From: Chiloscyllium plagiosum
Taxonomy: Eukaryota
Direction of reading: 5' to 3'
Length of the DNA stretch: 20,000 nt
Assembly (NCBI RefSeq): GCF_004010195.1
Contig: NC_057718.1
Location: forward strand, 5,073,085-5,093,084
The notes under the pieces were generated by a model. That model saw nothing but the letters and a program-made list of their open reading frames with translations. It was not told the origin of the DNA and made no database searches. Shown in pieces: positions 682 through 20,000 of the stretch. The number at the start of each line of letters is the position of its first letter. Position 1 is the stretch's first letter. Both the position numbers and the translations under genes were made by a program.

Positions 682-1288
682 AAACATGGCTCCAACTAAA
701 TTTTCTGTGGGAAAACCCAGACTGAGATTGTTTTGACGACACCTCCTCTCTCATCCACATCTTGCAGCCCTCGGTGACTGTAGAAAGAAAACAAAACGAG
801 GTGCGAAGGTAGGAGGGAGCTGGGGGAAGATCTTGTCACTGCCACAACATTCTCGGGAAGCAAGCCAACAAAACCTGCTGTGACTTCTTGCCTGGGTGGT
901 TTGTGTCAGAGCTCAGAGATGATTTGAATATTCATTGCAAGCAGATTTTGCAAACATGCTCCTGTTCTGTTGGAACTGTCTGAGAACCTTAGAGCTTTAG
1001 TGAAATACACTTCAGGCCTACAATGATGCTGGAAGTGCAAATGGATAACAGAACAGGGAAGACAGCAGAGTATCTACTAAACCAGTGAGTTGAAACAGCT
1101 GAAAAGTAAATGAGGGAAAGGCCAGGAAGGAGAGGGGATATGCACTAACGCTGCAGTGTTATGTTTTTATTTAAAAAAGAGTTCACAGATTGGCTTTTCA
1201 CAGTGATTGCTTGATTTCATTGCAGAAAGCAGGAATTAAGAAACTGTGCAGACTGACACTCTTTCTCCAGGGGTTTTAAAACAGGAAA

Positions 1289-1506
1289 TATAAAACAAAC
1301 AAACCGTGGTGCTGGAAGTCAGAAACAAAATAGAAATTGCAGGAAAAGCTCTGCAGGTCTGGCAGCCCCTGTGGAGAGAAATCAGAGTTAACGTTTCGGG
1401 TCTGATGACTCTTCCTCAGAAACTCTGGATCTGAAACATTAAGTCTGATTTCTCTCCACAGGTGCTGCTGGGCCTGCTGAGCTTTCCCAGCAATGTCTAT
1501 TTATGC
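1289..1506. mobile_element. Non-autonomous Penelope-derived hairpin (pLTR family B)
   Basis: Inverted arms ~1331-1402 and ~1428-1500. Minus-strand hammerhead motif CTGAGGA-A-GAGTC-ATCA-GACCC-GAAACGTT at 1389-1419. Decayed flanking direct repeat tttaaaacaggaaa (1275-1288) / tttaagataggaga (1507-1520), 11/14. Confidence 0.8.
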
Positions 1507-1537
1507 TTTAAGATAGGAGACTGGGTAAATTCCTGGT

Positions 1538-1748
1538 TAAAAACCACACAACACCAGGTTATAATCCAACAGGTTTATTTGGAAGCATTAGCTTTCGGAG
1601 CGCTGCTCCTTCATTAGGACACAACTACCTTATGAAGGAGCAGCGCTCCGACAGCTAGTGCTTCCAAATAAACCTGTTGGATTATAACCAGGATTTTGTG
1701 ATTTTTAACTTTGTACACCCCCCAGTCCAACACAGCGTCTCCAAATCA
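1538..1748. mobile_element. Non-autonomous Penelope-derived hairpin (pLTR family A), copy 1
   Basis: ~80-bp inverted arms 1537-1618 / 1628-1709 plus a ~40-bp one-sided tail. Degenerate hammerhead motif in each arm (stem II GGAGC/GCTCC). Flanked by taaattcctggt (1526-1537) / tagattcctggt (1749-1760). Confidence 0.85.
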
Positions 1749-1785
1749 TAGATTCCTGGTGACCTTTTACCTAATGTTGACTTCA

Positions 1786-2519: not shown

Positions 2520-2834
2520 TAATCATGGGATATGGACATTGCTGGCAAGGCCTGCATTTGTTGCCCAAACTTCATTGTCCAGGGCACAGTAAAGATTGAA
2601 CCATTGTTGTGGGTTTGGAGTCACATGTAGGCCAGACCAGGTAAGGATGGCAGATTTCCTTCCCTAAAGGACATTAGTGACCCAGGTAGGTTTTAAAGAT
2701 AATTGCAATGGTTCTGTCAAGGTAAAGTCTGTTTCCAGATTTTTAATCAATTTAGATATTCCCATTTCCATAAATATAGGCCTGGGATTCTGGGTTATTA
2801 ATCCAGAGACGCTCCCACCATGCCACTGCTTCCC
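2520..2834 (-). mobile_element. tRNA-derived SINE (non-HE1 family) with CR1-type tail
   Basis: Reverse complement matches 5628-5850 (ggttcactaatgtcctttag...ggcctacatgtgactcc); its 3' tail matches the LINE end at ~15675-15730. Confidence 0.75.
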
Positions 2835-3705
2835 CTGTTTTTAGAAATAAAAAAATTAATGTTACAAAAACAGAAATTGTTGGAGCAACTCAGCAGGTCT
2901 GGCAGCCTCTGCAGGGAGAAAGCAGAGTTTACGTTTCAGGTTCAGTGATTTCATCAGAACTGCTGGGCGCTGGGAAATAGTGATATTTATTTATACTGAG
3001 GACAAGACTATGATTTCAAGGTGCTGGTGCATGCTGAGGACAAGGTTGGTGGTGAAGTGAGTAGGTAAGTGACTGGAGAGGTGTGCAGACAAATAAAGAT
3101 GGAACCCAGACAGAGAGATATGGAGGGGGGTGGGTAAACAAGGAGATAATGCAAAGGAAGCCAGGACCGAAGAAAAGCTGAGTAAGAGCTAAGAGCAGGA
3201 GAGAATGGGTAGGCTGTGCTAAAAGTAATCCATGTCTGAATAGGACTGGGTGTTGGGGTGGATAATAGACATGGAAAGATTGAGTCAGGCTTGACGTTAT
3301 TTCAAGTTACTTCACCTGGAAGGTGTGTCTGGGACCTTGGATAGTGAAGAGGGTGGAAGTTAACAGGCAGATGTTGCACCTTCCGCAATTATGGGTGAAG
3401 GTATTGGGAGTGGAGGAAGAGTGAATTGGGGTGTTCTGGAGAGAATGGTCCCTGTGGAAGGTGGATAAGGGAGGGGAGGGGAATGTGTGTCACTGGAGGT
3501 GGCAGAAATGATGGCTTACAATCCTTTGGATGTGGAGGCTGGTGTGGTGTTAGCTGAGGACCTGGGGACCGTATTGCTATTGTGGGAGGGAAGGGAAGGA
3601 GTGAGGGCAGAAGTGCATGAGATGGCTCAGACCCAGCTGAGGGCCCTGTCAACCACAGTGCTGGGGAATCCTCGGTTGAGGAAAGAGGGGCACATTTCGG
3701 AGGTT

Positions 3706-4080
3706 CCCACGGCACCTTCCCCTGCAGCAGCAGAAGGTGTATCACTTGCCCATTTCCTTCCGCTTTCCTCACTATCCAAGGCCCCAGACATGCACCTTGC
3801 CTGTACATTGCTCAATCTAGTCTCCTGCATTCTCTGCTCAGAATGTGCTCTCCCCTACACTGGGGAAACGAGACATAGACTGGGCGGCTACTTTGCAGAA
3901 CACCTACACTCTGTTGGTAGAAATAAGCCTAAGCTCCCTATTGCCTGCAACCCCTCCCCAGTCCGTGTACCCATCCCAACATCGCAGTCTCAGGCCTCCT
4001 GCAGTGTTCCACTGAGCCTCAGCACAAGCTCACAGAACAGAATCTCATTTTCCTCTTGGGGCCCCTGCAGCCTCTAGGAC
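3706..4080 (+). pseudogene. Penelope zinc-binding linker and GIY-YIG endonuclease remnant (frameshifted)
   Basis: HGTFPCSSRRCITCPF...TIQGPRH, then in another frame NLVSCILCSECALPYTGETRHRLGGYFAEHLHSV, matching the recalled PLE pattern NLVYCI.C..C...YIGET.RRL..RF.EHL. Confidence 0.85.
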
Positions 4081-4158
4081 TCAACACTGAGTTCCAGAAC
4101 TTTTCAGCCTGATTCCATCCTGCCATGTTTTGTCCCCAGCCCCAACACCTGGTCCTGT

Positions 4159-4292
4159 CATCAGCCCTTTCCTGATGAAGGGCTTATGCCCGAAATGTCA
4201 GTTCTCCTGCTCCTCAGATGCTGCCTGACCTGCTTTGCTTTTTGAGCAGCACATTCTCAACTCTAATTTCCAGCATCTGCAATCCTCACTTT
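4159..4292 (+). mobile_element. Solo Penelope pLTR (family C) with minimal hammerhead motif, nested in the larger PLE
   Basis: CTGATGA-A-GGGC-TTAT-GCCC-GAAATGTC at 4172-4199. Exact 13-bp direct repeat cacctggtcctgt at 4146-4158 and 4293-4305. The segment is absent from the homologous inverted arm at ~3200-3260. Confidence 0.85.
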
Positions 4293-4489
4293 CACCTGGT
4301 CCTGTTATGACATGGATTGTTGTCAGCACAGTCAGCCATTCTCACATCATCTTCAACCAATTATCACATTATATGGGGGCTTTCAGTACAGCTCACTCAT
4401 TTTCTCCTACTCTCATTCTTATTATCAATTATTCAGTCACTGCCAGTGCTGGCCTGCTTTCCATAATCTCCTTGTTTACCAACCCATTT

Positions 4490-5005: not shown

Positions 5006-5627
5006 CCCACAGTTCAGACTCACTGTTGACTCTGCTTTCTCTCCACAGAGATTGCAAGACCTGCTGAGTTTCTCCAGCAACTTCTGTTTTTGTTTAGATC
5101 TCCAGCATGGGCAGTTCTTCATTTTATTTTTAAGTTAATATTACTTTAAGTTTACCATTAGAAAAGCAGTTGGTTTGGATAAAAGTTTTCAAATTTTAAA
5201 TTTCCGAAGAGAAGGTTCACAAAGTGAAAGAATGAGATTTCACGTTTAGAATTGTTTGCTGTCTGGACTGGAAAGACTGACAGTCTTTGACAATGAAGAT
5301 GTTGGTAAAGTGGTACTTCCACAGTTGATTACTGGATTTGACTTCCCGGGCGAGATTAATTGCCACGTACTGAAATGCATGAGCTTCCTGCAAAACACAG
5401 GAAGCTTCAGGATAAGATGTCACTTTTACAAAGTTAGTGGTATAACAGGGAAAATCTTGCACCAGATTGTGGTCTTTCAGAGTTTATTGCAACATCTCCT
5501 TTCTATGAATTGCACACTAACTAATATCCGTAACAACCATTTACATGTTGAAAAAATTCAACAAAAGTATGACACGTGTCACAAGATAAGATGGTGAATT
5601 CTCAAGTGTTTATATGCCACACATTCC

Positions 5628-6066: not shown

Positions 6067-6530
6067 TAAGATTGTAAGCTGTTGGAGCAGAAGTAGGCCA
6101 TTCAGCCCATCGGGTCAGCTCCACCATTCAGTGAGGTCATAGCTAATCTGATAATCCTCAACTCCACTTTCCTGCCTTTTCCCCATAACACGGTGGCAAA
6201 GTGGCTAGCACTACTGCCTCACAGCACCAGAGACCCGGGTTCAATTCCTGCCTCAGGCGACTGACTGTGTGGAGTTTGCACATTCTCCCCGTGTCTGCGT
6301 GGGTTTCCTCCGGGTGCTCCGGTTTCCTCCCACAGTCAAAATATGTGCGGGTTAGGTGAGTTGGTGATGCTAAATTGCCCGTAGTGTTAGGTGAAGGGGT
6401 AAATGTAGGGGAATGAGTTTGAATTGGGTTGTGCTTCGTCTACTTCAACGCCTGTTTCCACACTGTAAGTAATCTAATCAAACCCTTGAATCCCTTCCTG
6501 ATTAAAAATCTGTCTATCTCAGCCCGGAAT
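6067..6530 (-). mobile_element. CR1/HER1 3' fragment interrupted by an HE1 SINE
   Basis: ggagcagaagtaggccattcagccc...ttttccccataa (6067-6188) resumes as acccttgaatcccttcctgattaaaaatctgtctatctcagcc (6481-6530). Confidence 0.8.
6189..6480 (+). mobile_element. HE1 SINE
   Basis: A box tggcaaagtgg, B box ggttcaattcc, core cacattctccccgtgtctgcgtgggtttcctccgggtgctccgg, tail tgtttccacactgtaagtaatctaatc. Confidence 0.92.
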
Positions 6531-6628: not shown

Positions 6629-6763
6629 GAGAAAGTCCTTCACTGGCCATAAAATGCTTTGGAAGGACTTCCCTGTATGATCTTCCATGACTCTAGTTGG
6701 GGTAAGGCAAAGATTGATGAAATGATCCCATGTCCCAAACTGTTCTTTACCAGGAGCTCCCCC

Positions 6764-7263
6764 NNNNNNNNNNNNNNNNNNNNNNNNNNNNNNNNNNNNN
6801 NNNNNNNNNNNNNNNNNNNNNNNNNNNNNNNNNNNNNNNNNNNNNNNNNNNNNNNNNNNNNNNNNNNNNNNNNNNNNNNNNNNNNNNNNNNNNNNNNNNN
6901 NNNNNNNNNNNNNNNNNNNNNNNNNNNNNNNNNNNNNNNNNNNNNNNNNNNNNNNNNNNNNNNNNNNNNNNNNNNNNNNNNNNNNNNNNNNNNNNNNNNN
7001 NNNNNNNNNNNNNNNNNNNNNNNNNNNNNNNNNNNNNNNNNNNNNNNNNNNNNNNNNNNNNNNNNNNNNNNNNNNNNNNNNNNNNNNNNNNNNNNNNNNN
7101 NNNNNNNNNNNNNNNNNNNNNNNNNNNNNNNNNNNNNNNNNNNNNNNNNNNNNNNNNNNNNNNNNNNNNNNNNNNNNNNNNNNNNNNNNNNNNNNNNNNN
7201 NNNNNNNNNNNNNNNNNNNNNNNNNNNNNNNNNNNNNNNNNNNNNNNNNNNNNNNNNNNNNNN
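6764..7263. other. Assembly gap (500 N)
   Basis: Run of exactly 500 n; the round number suggests a placeholder of unknown true size. Confidence 0.99.
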
Positions 7264-7654
7264 TTGGCAACACCTTAAATTTTCTTGATTTTCATACAAC
7301 CCACCTGCTCATCTGACGTGTCACTGTGAAAGTGACTCACAAAATGTCACGGTGTATTTCAAAGCATCTTGTGGCTGAAGTGCTTTGAGACATTCCTGAG
7401 CATTGTGAGAACTCAATGTATTTTTCTTTAGTTTTTATTGTGTGTGTGTGTGCTGCAGAAAGATGGTGGGCGACTTTAAACTCCAAACTGTCTGTGTATC
7501 ACATTAGTGAACAAAGCCCATCAGGCAAACTGTAAGAGCCTGTCCTGTCCTGTGGGAAATGCATCTGTGTGTCTTACTATCACACTTCCTCATCGTCTCA
7601 ACTCAACACACTCCCCTGCCCTGCCTCCTCTCTGTTGTTCACGTGCATCCTCAA

Positions 7655-9098: not shown

Positions 9099-9712
9099 GG
9101 TGGCACGGTGGCTCAGTGGTTAGCACTACTGCCTCACAGCGCCGGGGATCCCGGTTCAGTTCTACCCCTGGGTGACTGGGTGGACTTTGCACATTCACAT
9201 GGGTGTATGGTTTCCCCTGGGTGCTCCAGTTTCTCCCACAGTCCGAAGATGTGTAGGTGGATTCGCCATAATAAATTGCCCATAGAGCCCAGAGTTGTGC
9301 CATGGGAAATGCAGGGTTACAGGGATAGGGTAGGGGGATGCTCTTTGAAGGGTTGGTCGGATTAGATTAGATTTGATTCCTTACAGTGTGGAAACAGGCC
9401 CTTCGGCCCAACAAGTCCACACTGACCCTCTGAAGAGCAACCCATCCGGACCTATTCCCCTACATTTACCCCTGACTAATCCACCTGACACTACGGGTAA
9501 TTTAGCGTGGCCAATTCACCCTAACCTGCACATCTGTGGGAGGAAACCCACGCAGACACGGAGAATGTGCAAACTCCACACAGTCAGTTGCCCAAGGCGG
9601 GAATTGAACCCAGGTCCCTGGTGCTGAGAGGCGGCAGCGCTAACCACTGAGCCACCGTGTCGCCCCTATGAAGTCGATGAGTCAGATGCTTCCACCCTGT
9701 AGGGATTCTGTG
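9099..9712 (+). mobile_element. HE1 SINE (+) interrupted near its 3' end by an antisense HE1
   Basis: Head ggtggcacggtggctcagtggttagcact at 9099; body runs to 9360; tail resumes at ~9666-9712 (gcttccaccctgtagggattct). Confidence 0.85.
9361..9665 (-). mobile_element. HE1 SINE (full length)
   Basis: Reverse complement begins gggcgacacggtggctcagtggttagcgctgccgcc and ends in a (ctaat)n tail. Confidence 0.92.
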
Positions 9713-14354: not shown

Positions 14355-14500
14355 AAAAGCAGAAATTGTTCTGAAGAAGGATCACTGGGACTCAAAACAT
14401 TAACTGTGTTTTATCTCCATAGATGCTGCCAGACCTGCTGAGTTTCTCCAGCAATTTCCACTTCTGTTTCAAATTTCCAGCATCAGTAGTTCTTTGTTTC
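14355..14500 (+). mobile_element. Penelope pLTR (family B) with a short inverted stub
   Basis: Degenerate hammerhead CTGAAGA-A-GGATC..GACTC-AAAACATTA (14371-14402), then gatgctgccagacctgctgagtttctccagcaattt as at 5040-5090; stub caaaagcagaaattg at 14355-14368. Confidence 0.8.
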
Positions 14501-14889: not shown

Positions 14890-15057
14890 CTGATGGACTG
14901 GAGAAGTACTCAATCACAAACTCAGAAGGACTGCCCCCTGGGTCTGGGACACCGCCACTGAAACGGAAAAGCAAGTTGGCGTCCATCGGCAAAATCTTCA
15001 AACCATGGAAGTGGCGGAAAAAGAAAGCAAGTGAGAAGTTCCAAGAGACATCTGCAT
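14890..15057 (+). CDS. PHACTR2: Internal coding exon of phosphatase and actin regulator (PHACTR family, most like PHACTR2 exon 2), just upstream of the first RPEL motif
   Basis: Translation (A)DGLEKYSITNSEGLPPGSGTPPLKRKSKLASIGKIFKPWKWRKKKASEKFQETSA contains the PHACTR signature GKIFKPWKWRKKK. The N-terminal DGLEK.SI.NS.G resembles PHACTR2 (DGLDKASIANSDG, recalled) more than PHACTR1/3/4. Polypyrimidine tract plus AG acceptor at 14888-14889; donor GTAAGT at 15058; 168 nt, phase 1-1. Family call is near certain, paralog call less so. Confidence 0.92.
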
Positions 15058-16104
15058 GTAAGTTAGTCGTTAGACTTGGCTTTGTCGGTGGGGGGAATTT
15101 CCTTTTAAATAACATTGCATTGTGGTTCAGCCAGCCTCTTTACCACCTCGGCTCCATTCACATCACTCTGGGCCATAACAGATATGGTTTCAGGCTCCAC
15201 TCCAAAACACAAAACACTGACCCCCAATTGTCCTCTAACCAGTCACTTTATGTTCCACTTGCATTTGCCTGTTTAGTCGCTGTGATAGTTTGCAATGCAG
15301 GTCACTGACAATGGTCAGTAGAAAAAGCACAATGCCCTCTGTTGAACCTCCAGACTCAGAGCAGCAAGTAACTGGTGCATTCCTGAAGCGATCAGATTGA
15401 AGGATTGTAAAGTTGAGCAGCTTAGAGTCGAGATAGTATACGTTTGAGGAGGTGAATCAGGTGGAGAATGGAAAATAAAGAAAGGAGAATAAAGATTGCA
15501 TTAAGAGAGATCAGTGGGGTGGATAGATAAACGAAAAGCATTTTGTTTTTAAATCTCCAACAACAATTTAAACCAGAGGGAATGAAACTTACATTTGTAT
15601 TTGTGAATGTTCAGAGCCAGAGATGTTGACTGCAAGTGATCCCAGAGTTAAAAAGCTTTCCAAGAATGTTTTAATAGGATGTGGCCATTACTGGCAAGGG
15701 CAGAATTTATTGGCAGTCCCTAATTGTACTTGAAAAGGTGGTGGTGAGTCACTTAATTAAACTGCTGCAGTGCTTTACACACACCCGTAGTGCTGTTTAG
15801 GAAGGATTTGAACCCAGTGACAGTGAAAGAACAGCGATATTATTTCCACATTTAGGATGGTGAGTGGCCTGGAGTGGAACCTAGCAGTGGCAGTGCTTCC
15901 AATCATCTGCTGTCTTCTCCTTCTGAGTGGTAGAGGCCAAGGGGTGGGAAGCTGGAGTTGAAGAGCCTTGGCAAATTCCTGGAGTGCATCTTGTAGATGG
16001 AGTGTATTGCTACCACTGTGCTTTGGCAATGCTTAAATTGGTAGATGTGCCAATTAAATGGGCCACTTTAACGTCCTTGATGGTGTCAAAGTACTTTAGT
16101 GTTG

Positions 16105-16306
16105 ATTTGGAGGAACTGGTGTTGGACTGGGGTGGACAAAGTTAAAAATCACACAACACTAGGTTATAGTCCAACAGGTTTATTTGGAAGCACTAGCTTT
16201 CAGAGCACTGCTGTTTCATCAGCTGCCCGATGAAGGAGCGGCGCTCCAAAAGCTACTGCTTCCAAATAAACCTGTTGGACTATAACCTAGTGTTGTGTGA
16301 TTTTTA
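16105..16306. mobile_element. Non-autonomous Penelope-derived hairpin (pLTR family A), copy 2
   Basis: Near-perfect inverted arms ~16138-16222 / 16227-16311, hammerhead motif in each arm, exact 12-bp direct repeat actttagtgttg at 16093-16104 and 16307-16318; orientation opposite to copy 1. Confidence 0.9.
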
Positions 16307-16591
16307 ACTTTAGTGTTGTTAGGGTCACACCCATCCAGGTGGACAGGCTTTGGAGGGGGGTCAAGAGGGAGTTACTCACTGCAATAAACCTAGCCTCTGA
16401 CCTGCTGCTTTAGCTGTATATTTGTATGGCTAGTCCAGTTCAGTTTCTGCTCAATAGTAACTTCAAGATCTTGGTGGTGAAGGATTCCACAATTTTAATG
16501 GCATTGAATATCAAGGGCAATGGCTATAAACTGTCTTGTTTCTGATAGTCATTGTCTGGCACTTATGTGCCATGGATGTTACTTGCTATTT

Positions 16592-19740: not shown

Positions 19741-20000
19741 GGGCAGCACGGTGGCACAGTGGTTAGCACTGCTGCCTCACAGAGCCAGAAACTCGGGTTC
19801 AATTCCCGCCTCGGGCAACTGTGGAGTTTGCACATTCTCCCCGTGTCTGCGTGGGTTTCCTCCGGGTGCTCTGGTTTCCTCCCACAATCCAAAGATGTGC
19901 AGGTCAGGTGAATTGGCCATGTTAAATTACCCATAGTGTTAGGTGAAGGGGTAAATATAGGGGAATGGGTGTGGGTGGGTTGTTCTTTGGAGGGTCGGTG
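19741..20000 (+). mobile_element. HE1 SINE (young, runs off the window)
   Basis: A box tggcacagtgg, B box ggttcaattcc, intact central motif; very similar to 6189-6480. Confidence 0.93.

What the first reader, a model, noticed from the sequence alone, without database searches (positions are those of the whole stretch)
16093..16318. ~200-bp TSD-flanked hairpin elements carrying two opposed hammerhead ribozyme motifs
Seen: two copies (1538-1748 and 16105-16306) of a non-coding element with ~80-bp inverted arms. Each arm ends, at the hairpin centre, in a motif whose four-arm consensus is CTGATGA-A-GGAGC-NNN-GCTCC-GAAA-GCTA. Each copy has a one-sided ~35-40 bp tail and 12-bp flanking direct repeats (exact here, 11/12 in copy 1). 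Established: PLE pseudo-LTRs carry minimal type I hammerheads with a palindromic stem III thought to work as dimers. Inference: these MITE look-alikes are retro-mobilised PLE derivatives that place a ribozyme motif on both strands. They may be an independently amplifying non-autonomous family or recurrent products of PLE insertion.
Basis: partly seen in the sequence, partly recalled or inferred. Interest (0 to 1): 0.7.

Follow-up and report, generated by a model that had tools for sequence, protein, structure and literature searches.

The report
Head-to-head Penelope retroelement end stumps
The two 200-base hairpins are real but are the shortest form of a known kind of jumping-gene insertion, in which two ribozyme-bearing ends of a Penelope-like element land head to head; the ribozyme motifs here look broken, and the main interest is what the fixed layout says about how these elements integrate.

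Summary
Observation confirmed: both hairpins have 80-nt arms, a tail on one side (36 and 39 nt) and 12-bp target duplications. They are two 5'-truncated ends of a Penelope-like element (PLE) joined head to head, the 'inverted copy plus tail' layout already described for PLEs. The family is very abundant; its majority letters give a minimal hammerhead, but none of the four arms here is intact, and one transcript carries only one motif, buried in the duplex. The two centres differ (11 and 4 nt) and family members run further upstream, so each hairpin is built at insertion, not copied from a master. The layout recurs elsewhere: of 46 metagenome hairpins, 25 (12 sequence clusters) have 10-17-bp duplications, all 25 with a tail on exactly one arm. 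Best mechanism: both nicked target strands prime reverse transcription, one at each of the two known start sites, and the two short cDNAs are joined. Fold-back self-priming remains a rival. Not shown: a link of this family to an RT/endonuclease gene. Side result: the arm's AATAAA is used for polyadenylation by family members. The scan noted this structure before, on other pieces of this genome and in another genome.

The parts
16093..16104 (+). Copy 2, left target-site duplication
   Evidence: 12 of 12 identical to 16307-16318; present once in the homologous LINE-like copy
16105..16140 (-). Copy 2, one-sided 36-nt tail (3' extension of the left arm, AC-rich in element sense)
   Evidence: aligns with the tail of copy 1; family copies end near 16103 (loose ends)
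16141..16222 (-). Copy 2, left (tailed) arm, read outwards from the centre
16191..16225 (-). Copy 2, left minimal hammerhead motif; core boxes intact, stems I and II damaged; predicted cut between 16194 and 16193
   Evidence: sequence read directly; family majority letters restore the stems
16223..16226 (.). Copy 2, 4-nt centre (junction of the two truncated 5' ends)
   Evidence: compared with the upstream sequence of longer family members
16224..16258 (+). Copy 2, right minimal hammerhead motif; U4>C and G12>A; predicted cut after 16255
16227..16306 (+). Copy 2, right (tail-less) arm; its end shares up to 5 nt with the target duplication
16265..16270 (+). AATAAA in the right arm (mirror copy 16179-16184 on the minus strand); family transcripts are polyadenylated 12 and 15 nt downstream
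   Evidence: poly(A)/poly(T) loose ends at 16282, 16285, 16164, 16167 in RNA run X21
16307..16318 (+). Copy 2, right target-site duplication
1526..1537 (+). Copy 1, left target-site duplication
   Evidence: 11 of 12 to 1749-1760
1538..1617 (-). Copy 1, left (tail-less) arm with hammerhead motif (core 1617-1611, G5>A)
1618..1628 (.). Copy 1, 11-nt centre: 9 nt of the family's upstream sequence on the right arm, 1 nt on the left arm, 1 extra nt
   Evidence: against loose-end consensus
1629..1709 (+). Copy 1, right (tailed) arm with hammerhead motif (core 1629-1635, G5>U, A14>C)
1710..1748 (+). Copy 1, one-sided 39-nt tail
1749..1760 (+). Copy 1, right target-site duplication
1275..1518 (.). Control, second family: same design (arms 1328-1402 / 1428-1502, tail on the left only, 12-nt duplication with 2 mismatches at 1275-1286 / 1507-1518; the right arm is cut inside its hammerhead)
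2865..4294 (.). Control: two decayed PLE remnants, minus strand (3704-3313, leading to a second-family arm at 2960-2865) and plus strand (3711-4032, leading to a hammerhead motif at 4172)
   Evidence: tblastn with RT + GIY-YIG proteins, E 4e-7 to 2e-5 and 4e-11 to 9e-10; motif scan

Best explanation
Each hairpin is a dead, one-off insertion made by the RT/GIY-YIG protein of a Penelope-like element from an RNA that carries the element's terminal repeat (the RNA may come from an autonomous or a non-autonomous source). Inferred steps: the endonuclease nicks both target strands about 12 nt apart; each free 3' end primes reverse transcription on the uncleaved RNA, one at the tail end and one at the internal start site about 36-39 nt upstream; both cDNAs run through the hammerhead cut site and stop a few bases beyond the motif's 5' edge; their ends are joined, often over a short palindrome, and fill-in gives the duplication. 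The result is one tailed and one tail-less arm, head to head. Shown here: the anatomy, the duplication, variable centres, the one-tail rule, a common source for both arms. Inferred: the two primings and the joining. The motifs are passengers; the hairpin is not the unit of amplification.
For: Same two outer ends in both window copies but different centres, 11 and 4 nt. In runs of organisms A, B and C, hundreds of contigs continue upstream of the motif with one shared sequence (639, 656 and 74 at 16222), depth over the tail is 0.30-0.35 of depth over the arms, and 592 different joints are listed. Same layout in a second family in the window, whose arm also follows a PLE coding remnant. In metagenome contigs 25 of 46 hairpins have a duplication scoring >=9 against 3 of 300 mismatched flank pairs; lengths 10-17 nt; tail 28-56 nt on exactly one side in 25 of 25; median arm about 80 nt. 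In the largest cluster the tail motif is on one arm in 19 of 22 loci, the partner arm is the best or joint-best match among 41 arms for 26 of 42 arms, centres vary, and the arm that runs further upstream is the tailed one in 5 and the tail-less one in 6 of 11 scorable loci among 34, as two separately extended cDNAs would give. Both arms of copy 2 share a letter that about 95% of the family lacks (16160, 16289). A purified PLE protein cuts and extends both strands, starts at two sites that bracket the tail, is predicted to be a dimer, and uses uncleaved RNA (PMC11167929).
Against: No RT/endonuclease gene was linked to this family's arm: protein searches with a 40-codon frame across copy 2 found nothing, and three DNA collections hold no copy of the family. 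The joints are partly alignment artefacts of this copy's mutated motif, and only 15 of 592 were shown. In the window, arms of one copy are no more alike overall (7-8 mismatches) than arms of different copies (8-10). 21 of 46 metagenome hairpins gave no convincing duplication, and 2 of 22 loci of the large cluster scored the tail motif on both arms (1 of these). The metagenome pattern required the two cores within 30 nt, so it says nothing on how often longer centres occur. Junction overlaps of >=2 nt are enriched (6 of 17 after merging two halves of one locus, against 10% in a random-join control), which fits fold-back priming as well. The in-vitro work is on a Poseidon-clade element and did not report inverted products in the parts I read.
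Confidence: 0.6

Rival explanations
1. Same PLE origin, different route: one cDNA is made, folds back on a short palindrome just upstream of the hammerhead, copies itself to give the mirror arm, and the endonuclease resolves the intermediate at the tail boundary.
For: Explains identical starting arms and the one-tail rule; junctions in the large cluster recur at two short palindromes in different subfamilies; self-priming was proposed for PLE inverted junctions with palindromes (PMC3846280 section 11) and endonuclease resolution for the tail (PMC8557442 passage).
Against: 8 of 18 short junctions show no overlap or extra letters; neither arm is consistently the longer one (5 against 6); the tail boundaries match the two RT start sites measured in vitro for another PLE.
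Confidence: 0.28
2. The hairpin is a non-autonomous retroelement family in its own right: a master hairpin is transcribed and copied whole by the PLE protein.
For: Hairpins of about this size recur at other loci (contigs spanning the centre, table 8); identical centres recur in the metagenome set (one 12-nt centre at 3 loci, one 9-nt centre at 3 loci).
Against: The recurring centres sit in different arm subfamilies; 51 distinct centres among 59 loci; the two window centres differ; copying a whole hairpin would not give a precise tail-less end, because that end is antisense on the template (inference).
Confidence: 0.08
3. A MITE moved by a DNA transposase, with arms as terminal inverted repeats.
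For: About 200 bp, non-coding, inverted repeats, and both copies of this family have a 12-bp duplication.
Against: The ends are not symmetrical (tail on one side); most family members are single or longer arms; duplications of 10-17 nt in like structures; a hammerhead motif with covarying stems across families.
Confidence: 0.03

Closest known systems
Complex insertions of endonuclease-bearing Penelope-like elements: inverted 5'-truncated copy plus one-sided 30-40-bp tail (Craig et al. 2021, PMC8557442, passages and Fig. 2 legend; Arkhipova et al. 2013, PMC3846280, passages and section 11)
   Same: Head-to-head inverted, 5'-truncated copies; tail at one end only; short duplication (8-10 bp in the rotifer examples); short palindromes at some junctions.
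   Different: Here nothing but the two terminal 80-120 nt is inserted, with no coding part; the published examples I read flank an ORF or a captured gene.
Minimal hammerheads (min-HHR) of metazoan PLEs (Cervera and De la Pena 2014, PMC4209133, parts 1-2 of 4 read)
   Same: Core boxes, one base between positions 9 and 10.1, G10.1-C11.1, palindromic positions 15-16, short stem I. The paper already notes dual min-HHRs about 100-700 bp apart on opposite strands and many solo motifs from truncated PLEs.
   Different: Here the two motifs are only 4-11 nt apart; all four are damaged; cartilaginous fish are not named in the parts I read (supplements not seen).
Poseidon element of the green anole studied in vitro (Frangieh et al. 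2024, PMC11167929, parts 1-2 of 4 read)
   Same: Two RT start sites bracket an AC-rich tail; both strands are cut and extended; AT-rich targets; ribozyme cleavage not needed.
   Different: Other clade and species; its start site lies 111-118 nt into the ORF, whereas the tail-less end here is about 80 nt from the core; inverted products are not described in what I read.
Non-LTR retrozymes (10.64898/2026.07.22.740005, passages; PMC7229834, listing only)
   Same: Short, non-coding, hammerhead-bearing, related to PLE terminal repeats.
   Different: Retrozymes are head-to-tail tandems on one strand; these are single head-to-head pairs with a target duplication.

Membership tests
PLE inverted insertion unit | Two 5'-truncated copies joined head to head | tested here: met
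   Arms read outwards from the centre; longer family members continue upstream
PLE inverted insertion unit | 30-40-bp tail at one end only | tested here: met
   36 and 39 nt in the window; one-sided in 25 of 25 metagenome hairpins with a duplication
PLE inverted insertion unit | Target-site duplication of variable length | tested here: met
   12 and 12 nt here (n=2, so variability is not shown for this family); 10-17 nt in 25 like structures
PLE inverted insertion unit | The arm is the terminal repeat of an element with RT and GIY-YIG endonuclease | tested here: inconclusive
   Not found for this family (no genome held). Seen for two other hammerhead families of the window, whose arms follow PLE coding remnants
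Minimal type I hammerhead (min-HHR) | Core boxes, bulged base, G10.1-C11.1, palindromic 15-16 tetrad, short stem I in the family majority | tested here: met
   Majority letters at 16213, 16214, 16225, 16228, 16256 restore the stems and core (16228 and 16202 only in about half of the depth)
Minimal type I hammerhead (min-HHR) | The same features intact in the four arms of this window | tested here: not met
   3 of 4 arms have core substitutions; the fourth has damaged stems
Minimal type I hammerhead (min-HHR) | Covariation of stems | tested here: met
   Across other families only: stem II of >=4 bp in 64 of 92 arms with 5-6 pair types at pairs 2-4; stem I, not part of the search pattern, 3 of 3 paired in 15 of 32 distinct cases against 3.8 on shuffling, 0 of 5000 shuffles reaching 15. 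Not tested within this family
Minimal type I hammerhead (min-HHR) | Self-cleavage, as a dimer or with protein | not testable with these tools
   No pile-up of RNA ends was listed, but the library (3'-end, poly(A)) is unsuited
MITE of a DNA transposon | Inverted repeats at both termini, symmetrical ends | tested here: not met
   One end carries a 36-39-nt tail outside the inverted repeat
MITE of a DNA transposon | Uniform internal sequence among copies | tested here: not met
   Centres of 11 and 4 nt; most family members are not this hairpin
MITE of a DNA transposon | Partner transposase with the same termini | not testable with these tools
   No genome held
Non-LTR retrozyme | Head-to-tail tandem monomers with the ribozyme on one strand | tested here: not met
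   Single head-to-head pair in each copy

The most novel reading that the evidence does not exclude
Across animals, PLE proteins integrate by coordinated twin priming: one protein dimer on one RNA uses both nicked target strands and both RT start sites, once each. That would explain the unexplained tail and inverted-repeat structure of PLE insertions in one step, with these hairpins as the minimal product. In this lineage the by-product would be hundreds of thousands of dispersed arms whose AATAAA supplies working polyadenylation sites.
Probability: 0.4. Interest if true: 0.6.

Novelty: new member of a known kind. Interest (0 to 1): 0.3.

Why it matters
As an element it is ordinary: a known PLE insertion layout in its shortest form, noted many times by this scan. 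It matters in two modest ways. First, how PLEs form their inverted repeats and one-sided tail is called unresolved in PMC8557442; the strict rule of one tailed plus one tail-less arm, and the lack of a rule for which arm is longer, give a cheap genomic test between twin priming and fold-back, and the reaction can now be run in vitro. Second, such hairpins can be mistaken for MITEs or microRNA precursors, and the family's arms appear to act as polyadenylation sites.

Tried and rejected
No genome is held for this window, so no genome-wide table of centres and duplications. Rfam: no hammerhead model matched; the microRNA matches are below threshold and reflect the hairpin. Family-specific DNA patterns found nothing in viral contigs or metagenome contigs; the 3 matches in genome contigs are bacterial chance matches without the motif. 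The 2 viral-contig matches to the generic pattern have no arms and are chance. A 40-codon open frame across copy 2 found no protein in either library. The endonuclease remnant of the window found no homologue directly or in Pfam; it was identified only by tblastn with intact PLE proteins. Two scans for autonomous PLE loci in viral contigs failed. No RNA holder of this exact locus was listed; no verdict on its expression. An apparent clustering of joints just after the ribozyme cut site was rejected: the letters between the joints are the motif itself, unaligned because this copy is mutated there. AATAAA/ATTAAA is not general in the other families (8 of 46 arms, 5.6 expected). The excess of arm-arm mismatches near the centre of copy 2 is not seen in the 46 other hairpins. 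The Atlas gave no usable hit for the exon-like frame near 14900-15060. Paper searches found no description of this family, of twin priming for PLEs, or of poly(A) use of a PLE terminal repeat; Repbase, Dfam, subscription journals and supplements were not searchable, and the family may well be catalogued there.

Full report
1. Observation. Both elements are as described. Copy 2 has arms at 16138-16220 and 16229-16311 (83 nt, 92% complementary), an exact 12-nt direct repeat at 16093-16104 and 16307-16318 and 36 nt outside the inverted repeat on the left only. Copy 1 is the same element in the other orientation (84% identical over 215 nt), with an 11-of-12 repeat at 1526-1537 and 1749-1760 and a 39-nt tail on the right. 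Random flank pairs gave such a repeat in 4 of 3000 trials. Copy 2 interrupts an older LINE-like repeat: with one copy of the 12-mer, its flanks align through to a second copy of that repeat in the window, so the repeat is a true target duplication. A contig of organism B carries the left flank, the duplication, the tail and the start of the arm with 9 differences in 306 nt (record 9), so the insertion is older than the split of the two organisms. That the genome is shark-like is my recall of its repeats and the wording of earlier notes of the scan; I did not test it.

2. The hammerhead motifs. Read outwards from the centre, each arm begins with a minimal type I hammerhead: core box, one bulged base, a 5-bp stem II, GAAA, a palindromic tetrad and a 3-bp stem I. 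These are the features given for PLE min-HHRs in PMC4209133 (parts 1-2 of 4 read). Rfam does not detect them. In the laid DNA runs the majority letters restore what these copies have lost, for example at 16213, 16214, 16225 and 16256. None of the four arms is intact: three have substitutions in the core boxes and the fourth has damaged stems I and II. Also, the two motifs lie on opposite strands, so a read-through RNA holds only one of them, and all four strand-wise folds bury it in the arm-arm duplex (-117 to -127 kcal/mol). The arms cross the predicted cut site by about 30-40 nt, so the template was uncleaved RNA. This agrees with the in-vitro finding that ribozyme mutants do not change PLE insertion (PMC11167929, parts 1-2 of 4).

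3. The family. About 80,000 contigs per DNA run were laid on this 711-nt stretch; summed depth over the arms is 4-9 x 10^5 times the single-copy flank depth. The tool warns that this is no copy number, so I take it only as 'very abundant'. Hundreds of contigs, and of RNA reads, continue upstream of the motif with one shared sequence (639 contigs in X1, 656 in X10, 74 in X18, 457 reads in X21 at 16222). The arms are therefore truncated ends of something longer. Depth over the tail is 0.30-0.35 of depth over the arms in all three contig runs, as for an optional tail. Against that upstream sequence, copy 1 keeps 9 nt on its right arm and 1 nt on its left with one extra base (11-nt centre), while copy 2 has a 4-nt centre. 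The outer ends are the same in both copies and the centres are not. Both arms of copy 2 share a letter that about 95% of the family lacks (16160, 16289), which points to one source for both arms or to later conversion. Overall, however, arms within a copy are not more alike than arms between copies.

4. Controls in the window. A second, unrelated hammerhead family forms the same structure at 1275-1518: head-to-head arms, tail on one side, 12-nt duplication with 2 mismatches. Single arms of it occur at 2865-2960, 5025-5107 and 14369-14485. The arm at 2865-2960 follows a minus-strand remnant that matches PLE proteins, and a plus-strand remnant with the linker and GIY-YIG region leads to a third motif at 4172 (tblastn E 4e-11 to 2e-5 with RT/GIY-YIG proteins). 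For the family of the finding itself I could not reach a coding region, so its PLE membership rests on anatomy and on these neighbours.

5. The layout elsewhere. I infer, without a test, that most are animal-host DNA. Of the 121, 59 had an arm score of 35 or more, 49 of those had 80 nt of flank, and 46 remained after removing 3 duplicates; the 62 dropped include chance matches, contig ends and arms with indels. Arms have a median of about 80 nt. 25 of 46 have a duplication scoring 9 or more, against 3 of 300 mismatched flank pairs; lengths are 10-17 nt, and in 25 of 25 the duplication abuts one arm and lies 28-56 nt beyond the other. These 25 fall into 12 sequence clusters, none of which includes the window's family. 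Arm length, tail, duplication and stem I were not part of the pattern; the short centre was. Stem I pairs fully in 15 of 32 distinct cases against 3.8 on shuffling. There are 51 distinct centres among the 59 loci. In the largest cluster the tail motif is on exactly one arm in 19 of 22 loci, on both in 2 and on neither in 1; the partner arm is the best or joint-best match for 26 of 42 arms; and identical centres recur in different arm subfamilies, at short palindromes of the upstream sequence.

6. Mechanism. The layout is that of published PLE insertions: an inverted 5'-truncated copy and a 30-40-bp tail at one end (PMC8557442, passages; PMC3846280, passages and section 11). PMC4209133 already mentions dual min-HHRs 100-700 bp apart on opposite strands. 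The purified anole PLE protein cuts and extends both strands and starts at two sites that bracket the tail. The simplest reading is two primings, one from each nick and one at each start site, with the two short cDNAs joined at the centre. It predicts one tailed and one tail-less arm (25 of 25) and no rule for which arm runs further upstream (5 against 6 in the 11 scorable loci of 34). Fold-back self-priming also gives one tail and fits the excess of short junction overlaps (6 of 17 with 2 nt or more after merging L019 and L020, which are one locus, against 10% in a random-join control), but 8 of 18 short junctions have no overlap. The sample is small and I keep fold-back at 0.28. Why the cDNAs stop just past the motif is not settled: a structure or protein block, or an RNA that starts there, are both open; the stop is not a fixed base, since 0-19 nt are kept in the large cluster. 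A master hairpin family (0.08) and a DNA-transposon MITE (0.03) fit poorly.

7. Side result. In the poly(A) RNA run of organism A, 1426 of 3370 laid reads appear in four listed loose-end rows with a poly(A) or poly(T) stretch 12 or 15 nt downstream of the arm's AATAAA, where the DNA is not A-rich; the rows shown for the DNA runs have nothing like it (1554 rows not shown). Most reads are 90-95% alike or less, so they come from other family members, not from this locus. RNAs ending there lack both outer ends of the element and cannot be its template. The signal is not general in other families (8 of 46).

8. Prior knowledge and verdict. Nine paper searches found the general layout but no description of this family or of twin priming for PLEs; repeat databases and supplements were out of reach. 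Earlier notes of this scan report the same hairpins and stumps on other pieces of this genome and in another genome; they agree with the reading I had stated before seeing them and are not independent support. Verdict: real, a new member of a known kind, interest 0.3. The cross-family one-tail rule is the part worth following, because it makes the open question of PLE integration testable.

Noticed in passing
window 16265-16285 and 16164-16184 (family-wide): Family transcripts are polyadenylated 12 and 15 nt after the arm's AATAAA: 1426 of 3370 laid reads of RNA run X21 in four loose-end rows. A hairpin carries the signal on both strands.
   Followed up: partly
window 1275-1518: A hairpin of a second hammerhead family with the same design; copy 1 is inserted only 7 nt beyond its right duplication.
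   Followed up: partly
window 2829-4294: Two decayed PLE remnants on opposite strands, head to head, ending in terminal repeats of different families; a 9-nt direct repeat at 2829-2837 and 3716-3724 may bound the minus-strand copy. The two cysteine pairs before the endonuclease suggest the Neptune clade (clade label from PMC8557442 passage; not tested by a tree).
   Followed up: partly
window 16141-16308: All 8 arm-arm mismatches of copy 2 lie in the inner 32 nt and none in the outer 50 (Fisher p 0.0003, post hoc); not seen in copy 1 or in 46 other hairpins.
   Followed up: yes
window 16093-16104 and 16307-16311: The target of copy 2 matches the element at the tail-less end over 5 nt, and partly matches the family's tail end; copy 1 shares only 1-2 nt at each end.
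   Followed up: no
window about 14900-15060 (+): An exon-like frame with a basic motif that I recall from the N-terminus of PHACTR proteins; if right, both hairpins are intronic. Pfam and the Atlas gave no confirmation.
   Followed up: partly
L052, L081, L082, L100: Metagenome loci where the best arm match is offset by about 80 nt, suggesting a short tandem of motifs next to the inverted one.
   Followed up: no
L113:402-545: A hairpin lies directly beside a well-preserved PLE endonuclease fragment (89-96% identical to the four PLE proteins tried); whether it belongs to the same family is not known.
   Followed up: partly
L001:556-2676: Chance match in a 2.7-kb viral contig whose single long frame matches a mitovirus-type RNA polymerase model; unrelated to the finding.
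   Followed up: no
window 1347-1671 and 16178-16271: Rfam microRNA-precursor models match all three hairpins below threshold; such elements could be mis-annotated as microRNA genes.
   Followed up: no
window 6189-6421, 9104-9300, 19747-19973 and others; about 6760-7270: Several copies of a SINE-like repeat and of LINE-like fragments, and a run of N of about 500 bases.
   Followed up: no
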